A stretch of DNA of 64,000 nucleotides, from positions 32,001 to 96,000 of the forward strand of contig CAWJQC010000008.1 of assembly GCA_963844965.1 (NCBI GenBank), in the 5' to 3' direction. This document shows, piece by piece, positions 30,001-33,000 of the stretch; position 1 is the first letter of the stretch, and every line of letters starts with the position of its first letter. The position numbers are program-made. The stretch comes from an uncultured bacterium. Its GTDB lineage: Bacteria > Patescibacteriota > Minisyncoccia > UBA6257 > 2-01-FULL-56-20.

Positions 30001-33000
30001 TGTCAAGCGCTACGTAATAAAATCCTCCACGCAAGCACTGGAGAATCTTGTCTTCCGCCTTTGGCACCTGCTGGTAGTGCATTCCCCGCGTCGTGCCTTT
30101 TGTTTTATTGAAGGAACGGTTGATGTGCACGATGTTGTAGTCAATACCTTGTTTGGCAAATTCCTCTTTGGCGAAATTCCGCACGAAAAATCCGCGCTTG
30201 TCAGCCTTCGGTTCAAGTTCAATCACCCACACGCCCCTTAGTTTTGTTTCTTTGAAAATCATGATTTGAACAACTTATTTGCCTTCATTTTAACACACGT
30301 GGTTCGTTTGGAAGCGGAATTATGTAGGAACCCCTGAAGTGATGCTTATTTTTGAGCATGTTTATAATCTCGTCCGCGAAATTCCAGGCAAGAATGAACA
30401 CTGTTTCGGGATTGCGACTCATTCCCGCCTCGGCGTTTTCAATCCGGATGTGCGTACCGGCGGTATAACGCCCCTGTTTCAGGGGGTTTAAGTCGATGAT
30501 TGCAGGCAAAATCCTGGAATCGATGCCGCAAAAGTTCAACATCGTCGAGCTACGGGCGGAAGCGCCCCAGCCCACAAGCTTGCTCGGGTTGACGGCTCTC
30601 AAGATCGAAAGAAGTTTTTCGCGATGCGCGAACGAACGTCTGGCGAAATTTTCCCAGCTTTCCAGTCGGTTGACGCCGCTTTTTTCTTCTTCGCTGCGAT
30701 ACCGCGAAACCGCGGCCGCCTGCCCGGTCTTGCGCTTCCTCGCGTAAGTAACAATCCCTCCGCCGCTTATCAGACTCGGCGCAATATCAAAGACGTAGAG
30801 GCCATGGTCGGCAAGCAGTCTCTCCAGGCTGGCAAGCGTGAAATAGCAAAGATGTTCGTGGTAAATCGAATCATAATGAAGCTTCTCCAAAATTATCCGC
30901 CCGTAGTGCGTTTCGATCGCGAGCACGCCACCGTCCGCAAGCGCCTCCCGGAGGCCGTCGACAAAATCGTGTGTGTTAGCGACGTGAGGGAGCACGTTCC
31001 GCGCAAAAACCATTTTCGCCCGGCCCTTCTCTTTGACAATCTCCCGCGCCGCTTGAATTCCAAAAAACAGGCATTTCGTGGGAACTCCTGCCATCTCAGC
31101 CATATCGGCGATGTTCTTGGCAGGATCGACTCCCAACACTTCGTATCCGTCGCGTATAAAAGGCCGCAGGAAAGTGCCGTCGTTGGAGGCGATTTCCAAG
31201 ACATAACCACCCTTGCCGCCTTTCCCGCCTTCAGCCCGGGCGACAAGTTCCTTATAAAACTTTTCCGCAAAATCATTGGCCGCCTTCGACGTCCCAGTCA
31301 CCCAAACGTAGTTGGAGAACAATACTTTCGGATCAACGGTATAACCCAACTGAACCAGGCCGCAGTCCGCGCAAAAATACAGGGCAAGCGGATAGAATAT
31401 TTCCTTCTCGGTCGGGCTCGGCGGCAAGGAGTTCGCAAGCGGCTGTTGCCCCAGATCAAAAAATGGCTTAATACTTGAACTCCGGCACACCCGACACGAG
31501 GTAATATTTTCCATCTCTTTAGAGTAATCTCAAAAAGCGTGAAAGGCAAACCGTACATGGCTTGGCTGGTGGGAGCGATGCCAATCTCAATCGTTTATGA
31601 TTTTAAATTCGGGCAGAGGAACGATGAACTTGCCTCCGCGCGCGAAAAATTCTTTCTCTCTTTCCCGGAATTCGTTCAGAAAGTGCCAAGGAAGTACCAG
31701 AAAATACTCCGGCTTCGCTTTGCGCGCCTCCTCCTCGGAAATTATCGGGATCATCGTGCCCACCGTATATTTTCCCCATTTGTCCGGATTTCTGTCGGCG
31801 GCCGCAGTTATCAGATCGCTGTCCAAACCAAAGTATTGCAAAAGCGTATTTCCCTTCGTGGAAGCTCCGTAAGCGTGCACTTTCCTGCCGGCGCGCACTT
31901 CCCGCCCGATGAAATCGCATACCTTGCTTTTGATATCTTTGACGCGCCGCACGAAATCTTCGTAAACCTTCTCGCCGCTCAATCCCATGTCCTTTTCGCT
32001 CTTCCGCATACCTTGGACGCGGGCCATGCCGCCCGGCGCTTCAAGTTTGCTCCCTTTTTTTCTGATATACGCGCGGAAACTGCCCTCGTTAATGTCGCGC
32101 AATTCCAAGTCGAACACTTCCAATCCGTGCCGCACGAGAAGATTTTCCAGGGAAAGAAGCGAATAGAGCTCGAGGTGCTCGTGGCAGATGCCATCAAAGG
32201 CGTTGCGCTCCAGCGCCCACGGCAGATAAGCCATCTGAACAACAAAAAGACCGTCGTTATCAAGGCATCGCACCACGTCGGCGACAAAAGCATTCGGGTC
32301 TTCAAGGTCATAGAACATGGCGATTGCTGTTATGATCTTCGCTTTCCTGCCCCCAAACCCACTTCTCCATCCTTCAAACTTGAAAAAATCGGGAATAACT
32401 TCCGTGAGCCCTTCACGACCGTATTTTTCCACAATATTGCGCGCCGGCTCAAAGCCGACGGTATTCAACCCAGGGATCGCGTACGAACGCAGAAGAGTTC
32501 CGTCGTTAGAACCGATGTCAATCACGTAATCACCCGCGCGGAGCGGAACCTTTTTCTCGGCCGCCGATGTTATTGAGCCCAATTCATCGGTCATCGTCTT
32601 GTTCATGCCGGAACGATACCAATAATTGCGATAGAGGGATTCGTGCGGAACCGTGTGCCGCAGCTGCAAGAGCCCGCAGCCGCCGTTCGCTTCGTTGCAA
32701 AGCACAAGTTCAAGCGGCGCTTTTTTTCCCTGCCGCGCGTCGTCCACGAAGTCGGAAACGTACAAATCGCCCAGAGAGAGAACGGGCAGAAGGGGCGAAT
32801 GGCCGCAGACGCGGCATGATTTTCTGACCGACATTTGTGGGTTCATAATATTCTTTGGATAATCGCACAGGTCCCGATTTTTTACAACTACAAATTCCCT
32901 TATTGCCTATTGCCTATTGCCGCCAACCTCAAACATCTCTTTCGCAAATTTCTCCCAAGACATATTCTCTTTGACAAATTTCTGACTGGCGGAGGCAATT

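What the first reader, a model, noticed from the sequence alone, without database searches (positions are those of the whole stretch)
30285..32846. Two tandem TylC3/EvaC-like C-methyltransferase-family genes
Tandem paralogs about 410–420 aa with an N-terminal Zn ribbon plus SAM MTase plus C-terminal C-MT domain. This family makes branched-chain (C-methyl) deoxysugars in antibiotic pathways. Two copies in a surface-glycan locus suggest C-methylated or otherwise unusually methylated sugars.
Basis: partly seen in the sequence, partly recalled or inferred. Interest (0 to 1): 0.5.

Follow-up and report, generated by a model that had tools for sequence, protein, structure and literature searches.

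The report
Two sugar C-methyltransferases, two pathways
Two neighbouring genes for enzymes that add a methyl branch to a sugar carbon are real, but they are ancient relatives rather than a recent duplicate: one most likely makes a rare but known methyl-branched 6-deoxyhexose, and the other belongs to a widespread, unstudied seven-carbon-sugar (heptose) pathway that may make a sugar nobody has described.

Summary
Window 30285-31514(-) (MT-1, 409 aa) and 31587-32846(-) (MT-2, 419 aa) are intact, full-length members of the NDP-4-ketosugar C-methyltransferase family. Both carry PF08421 (Zn ribbon), a SAM methyltransferase domain and PF08484, and match the solved structures of MtmC, KijD1 and TcaB9 at E about 1e-60.

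They are only 32% identical and fall on the two deep branches of the family.
- MT-2 has the Asp/Cys active-site pair of TylCIII, EryBIII, AviGI and Coxiella CBU_0691, to which it is 39-41% identical.
- MT-1 has the His/Tyr pair of TcaB9, KijD1 and MtmC.

Surveys of 159 related loci show the two clades are normally found alone and in different contexts.
- MT-2 relatives sit next to Gmd, Rmd-like or Fcl-like genes in 51 of 80 loci. This is the virenose/evalose-type GDP-6-deoxy-3-C-methylhexose logic.
- MT-1 relatives sit inside a conserved GDP-heptose operon (GmhA, Cj1427-like SDR, MT-1, RmlC-like, SDR, HddC/GmhB, HddA). At least one heptose gene is nearby in 62 of 79 loci.

The tandem here is therefore most likely a junction of two sugar-nucleotide cassettes, an arrangement conserved only in close (probably Patescibacteria) relatives. 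Family membership is solid. Substrates and the methylated carbon are inferred. A C-methyl heptose would be a new sugar.

The parts
31587..32846 (-). MT-2: TylC3-branch NDP-4-ketosugar C-methyltransferase (419 aa; alternative start at 32834 gives 415 aa)
   Evidence: Pfam PF08421, PF13489 and PF08484. MtmC E = 3e-60. 39-41% identical to EryBIII, TylCIII, AviGI and CBU_0691, with the same Asp180/Cys221 pair.
30285..31514 (-). MT-1: TcaB9/KijD1/MtmC-branch NDP-4-ketosugar C-methyltransferase (409 aa)
   Evidence: Pfam. MtmC E = 1.6e-62. Y69, H177, Y218, E220 and H221 correspond to TcaB9 Y76, H181, Y222, E224 and H225.
29705..30262 (-). RmlC-fold 3,5-epimerase-like gene, the conserved downstream partner of MT-1
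   Evidence: PF00908 191.7 bits. TIGR01221 165.8 bits against a cut-off of 155.75. An RmlC-like gene lies immediately downstream of MT-1-clade genes in 43 loci.
29012..29692 (-). Conserved unknown protein, weakly DUF218-like, that follows RmlC in the close relatives
   Evidence: DUF218 at E = 0.034 only. 57-72% identical orthologues in L003, L086, L095 and L100.
38562..39617 (-). [quoted passage not shown]
   Evidence: TIGR01472 508.8 bits against a cut-off of 415. Gmd, Rmd-like or Fcl-like genes lie near MT-2-clade genes in 51 of 80 loci.
37107..38016 (-). Fcl/GMER-like SDR #1, with the reading frame broken near 37795
   Evidence: tblastn with the L003 orthologue gives matches in frames -2 and -3. 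GDP-L-fucose synthase model 208.9 bits, below its cut-off.
36185..37105 (-). Fcl/GMER-like SDR #2, intact
   Evidence: GDP-L-fucose synthase model 299 bits, below the cut-off of 500. 73% identical to the L003 orthologue.
35083..36123 (-). GT10 (fucosyltransferase-family) glycosyltransferase
   Evidence: PF00852 71.7 bits.
26056..27105 (-). SDR_26k: SDR most like 6VO6, a candidate GDP-heptose C4-oxidising enzyme
   Evidence: Best solved relative is 6vo6, 111 bits, aligned over residues 1-310. An orthologue lies immediately upstream of MT-1-clade genes in 40 loci.
24902..26077 (-). Nucleotidyltransferase-HAD fusion (HddC-like plus GmhB)
   Evidence: Pfam NTP_transferase plus HAD. NCBIfam GmhB 159 bits; HddC and mannose-1-P guanylyltransferase models 78-103 bits.
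24016..24879 (-). SDR_24k, a candidate C4-ketoreductase of the heptose cassette
   Evidence: Pfam Epimerase 146.6 bits. Found within 6 kb of MT-1-clade genes in 36 loci.
22933..24015 (-). SDR_23k, a further SDR of the cassette
   Evidence: Pfam Epimerase 113 bits. Orthologues at 45-67% identity in about 10 MT-1-clade loci.
664..1254 (-). GmhA (SIS, sedoheptulose-7-P isomerase)
   Evidence: 74% identical to the SIS gene of L088. PF13580 63.4 bits.
1384..2454 (-). GHMP kinase (HddA-like)
   Evidence: PF00288 and PF08544. 60% identical to the GHMP kinase of L088.
27159..28055 (-). IS481-like insertion sequence that separates MT-1/RmlC/DUF218 from the rest of the heptose cassette
   Evidence: rve and HTH domains. 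An identical second copy starts at 53287.

Best explanation
Both genes encode active SAM-dependent C-methyltransferases that act on the carbon next to the 4-keto group of a nucleotide-activated sugar. By analogy with every characterised relative, that carbon is C-3. They are ancient paralogs from the two main branches of the family, and each serves a different GDP-sugar cassette. The two cassettes abut at this point in the operon.

MT-2 (TylC3 branch) is proposed to work as follows:
1. Gmd converts GDP-mannose to GDP-4-keto-6-deoxy-D-mannose.
2. MT-2 methylates that intermediate.
3. An Fcl/GMER-like SDR finishes it to a GDP-6-deoxy-3-C-methylhexose, as proposed for Coxiella virenose and as needed for 3-C-methyl-rhamnose (evalose).

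MT-1 (TcaB9 branch) is proposed to work as follows:
1. [quoted passage not shown]
2. A Cj1427-like SDR oxidises it to a GDP-4-keto-heptose.
3. MT-1 methylates that intermediate.
4. The RmlC-like epimerase and one or two SDR reductases complete a C-methyl-branched heptose.

Shown: domain architecture, catalytic residues, branch assignment and gene-context statistics. Inferred: the substrates, the methylated carbon, the stereochemistry and the separateness of the two routes.
For: Family membership:
- Pfam architecture.
- Full-length matches to MtmC, KijD1 and TcaB9.
- All four Zn cysteines and the residues matching TcaB9 Y76, E224 and H225 are present in both proteins. That Y76, Y222, E224 and H225 are the experimentally probed positions was checked against the PDB mutant sequences 4e31, 4e2x, 4e2y and 4e2z.

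Branch assignment:
- MT-2 and 119 of 119 relatives have Asp at the H181 position; 117 of 119 have Cys at the Y222 position. EryBIII, TylCIII, AviGI and CBU_0691 have the same pair.
- MT-1 and 119 of 119 relatives have His and Tyr, as do TcaB9, KijD1 and MtmC.
- A neighbour-joining tree separates the two branches.

Context of the MT-2 clade, 80 GTDB loci:
- Gmd, Rmd-like or Fcl-like genes within 8 kb in 51 loci.
- Two or more heptose-route genes in 0 loci.
- An MT-1-clade gene in 0 loci.

Context of the MT-1 clade, 79 metagenome loci plus 4 others:
- The SDR_26k orthologue is the immediately upstream gene in 40 loci.
- An RmlC-like gene is immediately downstream in 43 loci.
- At least one heptose-route gene within 8 kb in 62 loci, and at least two in 45.
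- Gmd-type genes in 5 loci and an MT-2-clade gene in 3.

The window itself holds both gene sets: Gmd and two Fcl-like genes upstream of MT-2; SDR_26k, HddC/GmhB, SDR_24k, GmhA and HddA for heptose.

Precedents: Coxiella has Gmd (CBU_0689), Fcl (CBU_0688) and a TylCIII-like gene (CBU_0691) in its virenose region (PMC3539893). 3-C-methyl-rhamnose occurs in O-antigens (PMC7203242).
Against: No biochemistry exists for either clade.

In the other loci that carry the MT-2/MT-1 tandem (L003/L091, L005, L090, L095), no SDR_26k orthologue lies in the roughly 8-10 kb of flank available. In L087 and L104, MT-1 directly follows Gmd and an Fcl-like gene. So in this lineage MT-1 could also use the Gmd product.

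The RmlC-like protein scores higher against dTDP RmlCs (131 bits) than against the GDP-heptose 3,5-epimerase 8dco (45 bits).

SDR_26k matches 6vo6 at only 111 bits, and that 6VO6 is Cj1427 rests on my memory.

The Fcl-like and HddC-like matches are below NCBIfam cut-offs.

C-3 rather than C-5 methylation is by analogy only; no NovU (C-5) sequence was available for comparison.

No terminator or promoter separates the two genes.
Confidence: 0.6

Rival explanations
1. Both enzymes act on the same Gmd-derived GDP-4-keto-6-deoxymannose. Either they act in sequence at C-3 and C-5, giving a doubly C-methylated 6-deoxyhexose, or they act in parallel, giving two stereoisomeric C-methyl sugars. On this reading the adjacency is functional, not a cassette junction.
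For: The order Gmd, Fcl, Fcl, MT-2, MT-1, RmlC is conserved in at least four further distinct loci (L003/L091, L005, L090, L095). In these loci no SDR_26k orthologue is seen in the available flank. In L087 and L104, MT-1 directly follows Gmd and an Fcl-like gene. The gap between the genes is only 72 bp and has no terminator. C-3 and C-5 both flank the 4-keto group, and from memory the family includes the C-5 methyltransferase NovU.
Against: Outside this lineage the two clades almost never co-occur: 0 of 80 MT-2-clade loci and 3 of 79 MT-1-clade loci. MT-1's conserved neighbours are heptose-route genes, not Gmd (5 of 79). The window itself carries the full heptose gene set, including an SDR_26k that is 76% identical to the one in L087.
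Confidence: 0.2
2. MT-1 and the RmlC-like protein act on a dTDP-sugar (dTDP-4-keto-6-deoxyglucose), as in the mycarose, epivancosamine and noviose pathways, and give a dTDP-C-methyl-6-deoxyhexose.
For: The RmlC-like protein passes the NCBIfam rmlC equivalog cut-off (165.8 against 155.75). Its best solved relatives are dTDP-4-dehydrorhamnose 3,5-epimerases. All solved members of the MT-1 branch use dTDP-sugars.
Against: No RmlA or RmlB gene was found anywhere in the 64-kb window. None appears next to MT-1 in L086-L089. The only nucleotidyltransferase consistently nearby is the HddC/GmhB fusion, seen in 41 of 79 loci.
Confidence: 0.1
3. One of the two is catalytically dead or has a different activity, for example ketoreductase (as in bifunctional MtmC), O-methylation or N-methylation, or acts as a non-catalytic partner.
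For: From memory, MtmC, the best solved match for both proteins, is bifunctional. Several neighbouring genes in this window are disrupted, so decay in the locus is conceivable.
Against: Both ORFs are intact and full length. Both keep the SAM motif, the Zn cysteines and every probed catalytic residue of their own branch, and these are invariant in 119 relatives of each.
Confidence: 0.07

Closest known systems
TylCIII (TylC3), EryBIII and AviGI: NDP-4-keto-2,6-dideoxyhexose 3-C-methyltransferases of Streptomyces and Saccharopolyspora
   Same: MT-2 has the same three-domain architecture. It is 39-41% identical to them, shares the SIAMFYDL/CHEH-type Asp/Cys active-site pair and falls on the same tree branch.
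   Different: These enzymes use dTDP-2,6-dideoxy sugars in antibiotic pathways. MT-2 lies in a cell-surface glycan operon with Gmd and Fcl-like genes, and there is no 2,3-dehydratase or RmlA/RmlB, so a GDP-6-deoxymannose-type substrate is inferred.
Coxiella burnetii CBU_0691 with CBU_0689 (Gmd) and CBU_0688 (Fcl): the proposed GDP-virenose route
   Same: The same gene trio is present (Gmd, Fcl/GMER-like, TylC3-branch methyltransferase). MT-2 is 41% identical to CBU_0691 and has the same Asp/Cys pair.
   Different: The Coxiella route is itself an in silico proposal supported by deletion phenotypes (PMC3539893, PMC5843353). The host here is probably a Patescibacteria member. There are two Fcl-like genes (one with a broken frame), and GT10, FkbM and GT4 genes lie between them and MT-2.
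TcaB9, KijD1 and MtmC: solved dTDP-sugar 3-C-methyltransferases
   Same: MT-1 shares the fold-wide alignment, the Zn site and the full residue set Y76, H181, Y222, E224, H225, and falls on the same tree branch.
   Different: Identity is only 29-33%. These enzymes act on dTDP-3-amino-2,3,6-trideoxy or 2,6-dideoxy-4-keto sugars in actinomycete antibiotics. MT-1's conserved neighbours are GDP-heptose genes.
Campylobacter jejuni GDP-heptose modification pathways (Cj1427 C4-dehydrogenase, Cj1430-type epimerases, Cj1428-type reductases)
   Same: The MT-1 operon has GmhA, HddA, GmhB and HddC, a 6VO6-like SDR, an RmlC-fold epimerase and SDR reductases. This is the same oxidise, epimerise, reduce logic (PMC10680097).
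   Different: The characterised repertoire contains no methyltransferase and no C-methyl product; the review has 0 mentions of either. The RmlC-like protein here is much closer to dTDP RmlCs than to 8dco.
Noviose (NovW, NovU, NovS) and epivancosamine (EvaC, EvaD, EvaE) trios
   Same: The same gene trio is present: C-methyltransferase, RmlC-fold epimerase and 4-ketoreductase. NovW and EvaD are among the PDB hits of the RmlC-like protein.
   Different: Those act on dTDP-sugars in antibiotics. Whether MT-1 follows the C-3 (Eva) or the C-5 (Nov) pattern cannot be told, because no NovU sequence was available.

Membership tests
NDP-4-ketosugar C-methyltransferase family (TylC3/TcaB9; PF08421 + class I SAM MTase + PF08484) | N-terminal four-cysteine zinc ribbon (PF08421) | tested here: met
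   PF08421 scores 77.4 bits (MT-1) and 40.3 bits (MT-2) against a cut-off of 31.3. Cys7, 10, 48 and 51 in MT-1 and Cys11, 14, 50 and 57 in MT-2 align with the TcaB9 Zn cysteines.
NDP-4-ketosugar C-methyltransferase family (TylC3/TcaB9; PF08421 + class I SAM MTase + PF08484) | Central class I SAM-binding domain | tested here: met
   PF13489 scores 69.6 and 53.6 bits. The motif (E/D)I(A/G)SNDGT is conserved in both clades.
NDP-4-ketosugar C-methyltransferase family (TylC3/TcaB9; PF08421 + class I SAM MTase + PF08484) | C-terminal NDP-sugar-binding domain (PF08484) | tested here: met
   PF08484 scores 129.5 and 161 bits against a cut-off of 23.5, covering the full profile.
NDP-4-ketosugar C-methyltransferase family (TylC3/TcaB9; PF08421 + class I SAM MTase + PF08484) | Catalytic Tyr76, Glu224 and His225 (TcaB9 numbering), positions probed by the PDB mutants 4e31, 4e2y and 4e2z | tested here: met
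   MT-1 has Y69, E220 and H221. MT-2 has Y75, E223 and H224. These are invariant in 119 relatives of each.
NDP-4-ketosugar C-methyltransferase family (TylC3/TcaB9; PF08421 + class I SAM MTase + PF08484) | SAM-dependent methyl transfer to C-3 (or C-5) of an NDP-4-keto sugar | not testable with these tools
   This needs an enzyme assay.
TylC3 branch (TylCIII, EryBIII, AviGI, CBU_0691): applies to MT-2 | Asp at the TcaB9 H181 position and Cys at the Y222 position; clusters with TylCIII and relatives | tested here: met
   MT-2 has D180 and C221. All four reference sequences have D and C. MT-2 is 39-41% identical to them and groups with them in the tree.
TcaB9/KijD1/MtmC branch: applies to MT-1 | His181 and Tyr222 retained; clusters with the solved enzymes | tested here: met
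   MT-1 has H177 and Y218. The tree places the MT-1 clade with MtmC, KijD1 and TcaB9 at 29-33% identity.
Virenose/evalose-type GDP-6-deoxy-3-C-methylhexose route (MT-2 cassette) | Gmd in the same operon | tested here: met
   TIGR01472 scores 508.8 bits against a cut-off of 415, and the gene is on the same strand upstream. A Gmd at 50% identity or more lies within 8 kb in 32 of 80 MT-2-clade loci, and any Gmd, Rmd-like or Fcl-like gene in 51 of 80.
Virenose/evalose-type GDP-6-deoxy-3-C-methylhexose route (MT-2 cassette) | GMER/Fcl- or Rmd-type 4-keto reductase | tested here: inconclusive
   There are two Fcl-like SDRs, scoring 299 and 209 bits against a cut-off of 500, and one has a broken frame.
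Virenose/evalose-type GDP-6-deoxy-3-C-methylhexose route (MT-2 cassette) | A 6-deoxy-3-C-methylhexose in the glycan | not testable with these tools
   The organism is uncultured, so there is no glycan chemistry.
[quoted passage not shown] | GmhA, HddA (GHMP kinase), GmhB and HddC present | tested here: met
   Window 664-1254, 1384-2454 and 24902-26077. Two or more such genes lie near MT-1-clade genes in 45 of 79 loci.
[quoted passage not shown] | A C4-oxidising SDR of the Cj1427 type (or a 4,6-dehydratase) | tested here: inconclusive
   SDR_26k's best solved relative is 6vo6 at 111 bits. It is not Gmd-like (gmd model 19.9 bits). That 6VO6 is Cj1427 is from memory.
[quoted passage not shown] | A GDP-heptose-specific RmlC-fold epimerase | tested here: inconclusive
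   The fold is confirmed (PF00908). However, 131 bits against dTDP RmlC compares with 45 bits against the GDP-heptose epimerase 8dco.
NovU-type C-5 methyltransferases | Sequence clustering with NovU, CloU and CouU | not tested
   No NovU sequence could be obtained with the tools, and the literature search found nothing usable.

The most novel reading that the evidence does not exclude
The MT-1 clade defines a widespread, uncharacterised branch of GDP-heptose metabolism. In it, a TcaB9-type C-methyltransferase is inserted between a C4-oxidising SDR and an RmlC-like epimerase plus reductase. The product would be a C-methyl-branched heptose, a class of sugar that appears in none of the literature I could search. 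It would be displayed on cell surfaces of many uncultivated groundwater, freshwater and marine microbes.
Probability: 0.5. Interest if true: 0.6.

Novelty: new variant of a known kind. Interest (0 to 1): 0.45.

Why it matters
C-methyl-branched sugars are known mainly from actinomycete antibiotics and from a handful of O-antigens: virenose, evalose and, from memory, 3-C-methyl-mannose.

This locus and its relatives show that both branches of the responsible enzyme family are common in the surface-glycan loci of uncultivated bacteria and archaea. The MT-2 signature pattern alone matched at least 594 GTDB species.

The TcaB9-type branch has a conserved home inside a GDP-heptose operon. That gives a directly testable prediction with four or five soluble enzymes and a known substrate. 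A positive result would enlarge the catalogue of bacterial heptose modifications and supply new enzymes for glyco-engineering.

The Asp/Cys versus His/Tyr pair also gives annotators a simple marker for telling the two branches apart.

Tried and rejected
1. I first read MT-2's Asp180/Cys221 as a novel active-site variant, because all three solved structures have His/Tyr. I rejected this after the supplement of PMC3539893 showed the same pair in TylCIII, EryBIII, AviGI and CBU_0691.

2. Recent tandem duplication is rejected. The two proteins are 32% identical and lie on opposite deep branches.

3. Exact-sequence look-up of MT-1 found no contig. Look-ups of the RmlC-like protein and MT-2 returned only 1.5-kb and 2.5-kb Logan contigs from run ERR10755942. 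The 156-kb source contig and the organism name were not retrievable. The best GTDB relative of MT-2 is only 62-64% identical. The Patescibacteria assignment therefore rests on the names of homologues and on synteny.

4. The TcaB9, KijD1 and Cj1427 papers are not held. The residues probed in TcaB9 were recovered from PDB mutant sequences instead. The H181 mutant was not displayed, and the roles of H181 and Y222 are from memory.

5. Literature searches for NovU and for '6VO6' were uninformative.

6. The promoter and terminator scan across the junction found nothing above the shuffle expectation.

7. A dTDP route was considered. No RmlA or RmlB gene is present in the window.

8. Rfam and tRNA scans found only one tRNA-Leu.

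9. Structure prediction and fold search were not run. Sequence matches to solved structures already cover the full length at E about 1e-60.
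Full report
**Observation**

ORF listing shows two adjacent minus-strand ORFs at exactly the reported coordinates. MT-1 is 30285-31514 (409 aa). MT-2 is 31587-32846 (419 aa); a public gene call starts four codons later (P0123, 415 aa).

Pfam finds the full three-domain architecture in both proteins, with every domain above its gathering score:
- PF08421 zinc ribbon: 77.4 bits (MT-1) and 40.3 bits (MT-2).
- PF13489 SAM methyltransferase: 69.6 and 53.6 bits.
- PF08484 C-methyltransferase C-terminal domain: 129.5 and 161 bits.

The two proteins align over their full length at 32% identity, E = 1e-53. Each aligns end to end with the solved sugar 3-C-methyltransferases MtmC (4rv9), KijD1 (5t64) and TcaB9 (3ndi), with E from 1.6e-62 to 4e-37. 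A short-read contig from run ERR10755942 (L002) is 100% identical across window 30605-33055.

**Active sites and position in the family**

I aligned MT-1, MT-2, 119 close homologues of each and the three solved enzymes. TcaB9 literature numbering equals PDB SEQRES numbering minus 2. This was checked against the deposited point mutants: 4e31 is Y76F, 4e2x is Y222F, 4e2y is E224Q and 4e2z is H225N.

Both window proteins and all of their relatives keep the four Zn cysteines and the equivalents of Y76, E224 and H225. They differ at two pocket positions:

| Position (TcaB9 numbering) | MT-1 and its clade | MT-2 and its clade |
|---|---|---|
| H181 | His (119 of 119) | Asp (119 of 119) |
| Y222 | Tyr (119 of 119) | Cys (117 of 119) |

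MT-1's pair matches TcaB9, KijD1 and MtmC. I first took MT-2's pair for a new variant. The supplementary alignment of PMC3539893 gives the full sequences of EryBIII, TylCIII, AviGI and Coxiella CBU_0691, and all four have the same Asp/Cys pair (SIAMFYDL ... VCHEH).

Pairwise identities and a neighbour-joining tree show two deep branches:
- TylCIII, EryBIII, AviGI and CBU_0691 group with the MT-2 clade. MT-2 is 39-41% identical to them.
- MtmC, KijD1 and TcaB9 group with the MT-1 clade. MT-1 is 29-33% identical to them.

The tandem pair is therefore one member of each ancient branch, not a recent duplication. Every characterised reference on either branch is a C-3 methyltransferase acting on an NDP-4-keto sugar.

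**The locus**

The genes lie in a long minus-strand surface-glycan operon. In transcription order it reads:
1. RNase Y (42271-43635).
2. Wzy_C protein (40344-42125) and an unknown gene.
3. Gmd (38562-39617; TIGR01472 508.8 bits).
4. Two Fcl/GMER-like SDRs: 37107-38016 with a broken frame, and 36185-37105 intact.
5. GT10 (35083-36123).
6. An FkbM methyltransferase with three frame changes (34128-35063).
7. GT4 with a premature stop (homology runs 32919-34118).
8. MT-2, then MT-1.
9. RmlC-like (29705-30262).
10. A conserved, weakly DUF218-like protein (29012-29692).
11. A NUDIX gene on the opposite strand and an IS481-like element.
12. SDR_26k (26056-27105).
13. A nucleotidyltransferase-HAD fusion with GmhB and HddC/guanylyltransferase similarity (24902-26077).
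14. SDR_24k and SDR_23k.
15. A split transketolase-like pair, a CmcI-type O-methyltransferase, glycosyltransferases, a flippase, a TylF-like methyltransferase and a carbamoyltransferase.

GmhA (664-1254) and a GHMP kinase (1384-2454, HddA-like) are also in the window. No RmlA or RmlB was found anywhere in it.

**Comparative context of MT-2**

They span Patescibacteria, DPANN archaea, Acidobacteriota, Verrucomicrobiota, Nitrospira, Dehalococcoidia and cyanobacteria.

In the 80 loci returned:
- Gmd, a Gmd-like protein at 38-50% identity (Rmd-like) or an Fcl-like SDR lies within 8 kb in 51 loci.
- Two or more heptose-route genes occur in 0 loci.
- An MT-1-clade gene occurs in 0 loci.

This matches the gene set of the Coxiella virenose region: CBU_0689 Gmd, CBU_0688 Fcl and CBU_0691 (PMC3539893; PMC5843353). 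It also matches what is needed for the GDP-D-rhamnose-derived 3-C-methyl-rhamnose found in Burkholderia andropogonis and Azorhizobium O-antigens (PMC7203242).

**Comparative context of MT-1**

Four long contigs carrying MT-1 homologues all place the gene with an RmlC-like gene and a set of five others: a GHMP kinase, SIS, an SDR of about 346 aa, an NTP-transferase-HAD fusion and an SDR of about 290 aa.

A metagenome scan with an alignment of the MT-1 clade returned 80 loci from groundwater, lakes, sediments and the ocean. The recurrent gene order is GmhA, SDR_26k, MT-1, RmlC-like, SDR_24k, HddC/GmhB, HddA, and often CmcI.

Counts over the 79 loci with a usable anchor gene:
- The SDR_26k orthologue (44-76% identical) is the immediately upstream gene in 40 loci; only 43 loci have at least 3 kb of upstream sequence.
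- An RmlC-like gene is immediately downstream in 43 loci.
- At least one heptose-route gene lies within 8 kb in 62 loci, and at least two in 45.
- Gmd-type genes occur in 5 loci and an MT-2-clade gene in 3.

SDR_26k's best solved relative is 6vo6 (111 bits, aligned over residues 1-310). [quoted passage not shown] SDR_26k is not Gmd-like (gmd model 19.9 bits).

The 2023 review of C. jejuni heptose pathways lists a dehydrogenase, a 4,6-dehydratase, epimerases, a 3-dehydratase, reductases and mutases. It does not contain the words 'methyltransferase' or 'C-methyl' (PMC10680097). Searches combining heptose with C-methyltransferase or with 3-C-methyl found no described C-methyl heptose.

**Interpretation**

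The best-supported model is that the tandem marks the junction of two GDP-sugar cassettes.

In the first cassette, Gmd makes GDP-4-keto-6-deoxymannose. MT-2 methylates it, at C-3 by analogy with relatives. An Fcl-like SDR finishes a 6-deoxy-3-C-methylhexose. The GT10 enzyme, from a family that from memory uses GDP-fucose, is a candidate transferase.

In the second cassette, GmhA, HddA, GmhB and HddC make GDP-heptose. SDR_26k oxidises C-4, MT-1 methylates the adjacent carbon, the RmlC-like protein epimerises, and SDR_24k and SDR_23k reduce. The trio of methyltransferase, RmlC-fold epimerase and ketoreductase mirrors EvaC/EvaD/EvaE and NovU/NovW/NovS.

Shown: architecture, conserved catalytic residues, branch membership and gene-neighbourhood statistics. 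Inferred: substrates, regiochemistry, stereochemistry and the independence of the two routes.

**Caveats and rivals**

- The MT-2/MT-1 adjacency is conserved in at least four further distinct loci of close relatives (L003/L091, L005, L090, L095). There the pair follows Gmd, Fcl, Fcl, and no SDR_26k orthologue lies in the available flank.
- In L087 and L104, MT-1 directly follows Gmd and an Fcl-like gene. In this lineage both enzymes could therefore act on the Gmd product, possibly giving a doubly C-methylated sugar (rival 1, about 0.2).
- The RmlC-like protein passes the rmlC equivalog cut-off and resembles dTDP RmlCs far more than the GDP-heptose epimerase 8dco. This keeps a dTDP route formally open, although no RmlA or RmlB is present (rival 2, about 0.1).
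- Loss or change of function in one copy is unlikely, given intact frames and invariant catalytic residues (rival 3, about 0.07).
- There is no terminator or above-chance promoter in the 72-bp gap between the two genes.

**Source organism**

The exact proteins occur on a single unnamed 156-kb public contig. The closest homologues carry names such as Candidatus Liptonbacteria, Jorgensenbacteria, Paceibacterota and Parcubacteria. The syntenic contigs come from groundwater metagenomes. A Patescibacteria (CPR) origin is likely but not proven.

**Verdict**

What the tools add:
1. The two genes are ancient paralogs of the TylC3 type and the TcaB9 type, distinguishable by an Asp/Cys versus His/Tyr pocket pair.
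2. Each clade has its own conserved pathway context.
3. The TcaB9-type clade sits in a widespread GDP-heptose operon, which predicts a C-methyl-branched heptose that has not been described.

MT-2 is a new member of a known kind. The MT-1 operon is a new variant of a known kind. Overall interest is moderate, 0.45.

Noticed in passing
window 27159-28060 and 53287-54420: An IS481-like insertion sequence (rve integrase plus HTH domains) is present as two direct copies that are 100% identical over at least 300 nt. The first copy lies between MT-1/RmlC/DUF218 and the SDR_26k-HddC/GmhB part of the heptose cassette, next to an oppositely oriented NUDIX gene. This suggests a recent rearrangement.
   Followed up: partly
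window 37107-38016; 34128-35063; 32919-34118; 44010-45570; L001 against window 28983-30493: Several genes have broken frames: Fcl-like SDR #1 (one frameshift), FkbM methyltransferase (three frame changes), GT4 (premature stop at 33159 with homology continuing beyond it) and the housekeeping iPGM gene (split into two ORFs). The Logan contig L001 differs from the window by 2 indels. Whether these are assembly errors or real gene decay is unresolved.
   Followed up: partly
window 20531-22220; L003 18100-19961; L005 13002-14857; L088 14344-16160: A split transketolase or E1-like pair lies inside the glycan locus. Relatives carry E1_dh plus Transketolase_C next to an RmlC-like gene and an SDR. This resembles, from memory, the ThDP-dependent two-carbon branching of sugars (AviB1/AviB2, yersiniose type), so the locus may encode a second kind of branched-chain sugar.
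   Followed up: no
L086 15485-16639; L087 13817-14956: A third methyltransferase type has the PF08484 C-terminal domain but no Zn ribbon (PF22674-like N-terminus, 379-384 aa). It follows the SDR_24k orthologue in relatives and is absent from this window, where SDR_23k occupies that position.
   Followed up: partly
window 54714-58427: A class I aminoacyl-tRNA synthetase of 1237 aa (apparently IleRS-type) carries a histidine-phosphatase (PF00300) domain inserted at residues 554-719.
   Followed up: no
window 6707-10266 together with 664-2454 and 24902-26077: Genes of both heptose activation routes are present. The ADP-heptose type comprises an RfaE domain I kinase (8727-9692), a cytidylyltransferase-like gene (9691-10266) and a GT9 heptosyltransferase (6707-8569). 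The GDP-heptose type comprises GmhA, a GHMP kinase and the HddC/GmhB fusion. This is unexpected in what looks like a Patescibacteria genome.
   Followed up: no
L019, L024-L027, L031, L032, L036, L041, L073: TylC3-branch (MT-2-like) C-methyltransferases at 50-60% identity occur in DPANN archaea (Micrarchaeota, Iainarchaeum). This implies C-methyl sugars or horizontal transfer across domains among ultra-small groundwater organisms.
   Followed up: no
window 29012-29692; L003 13112-13786; L086 9915-10586; L100: A protein of about 225 aa with only a faint DUF218 match (E = 0.034) is conserved immediately after the RmlC-like gene in the close relatives. Its role is unknown.
   Followed up: partly
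PMC3539893 Additional file 1-F (CBU_0691): As annotated, Coxiella CBU_0691 starts at MLHLG and lacks the first CxxC of the zinc ribbon that every other family member has. The annotated start may be wrong, or the N-terminus may really be truncated.
   Followed up: no
window 11379-14153: A carbamoyltransferase (PF02543 and PF16861, 616 aa) and an SxtJ-like small protein lie in the glycan locus, together with TylF-like, CmcI-like and FkbM methyltransferases. This points to heavily O-methylated and carbamoylated sugars.
   Followed up: no
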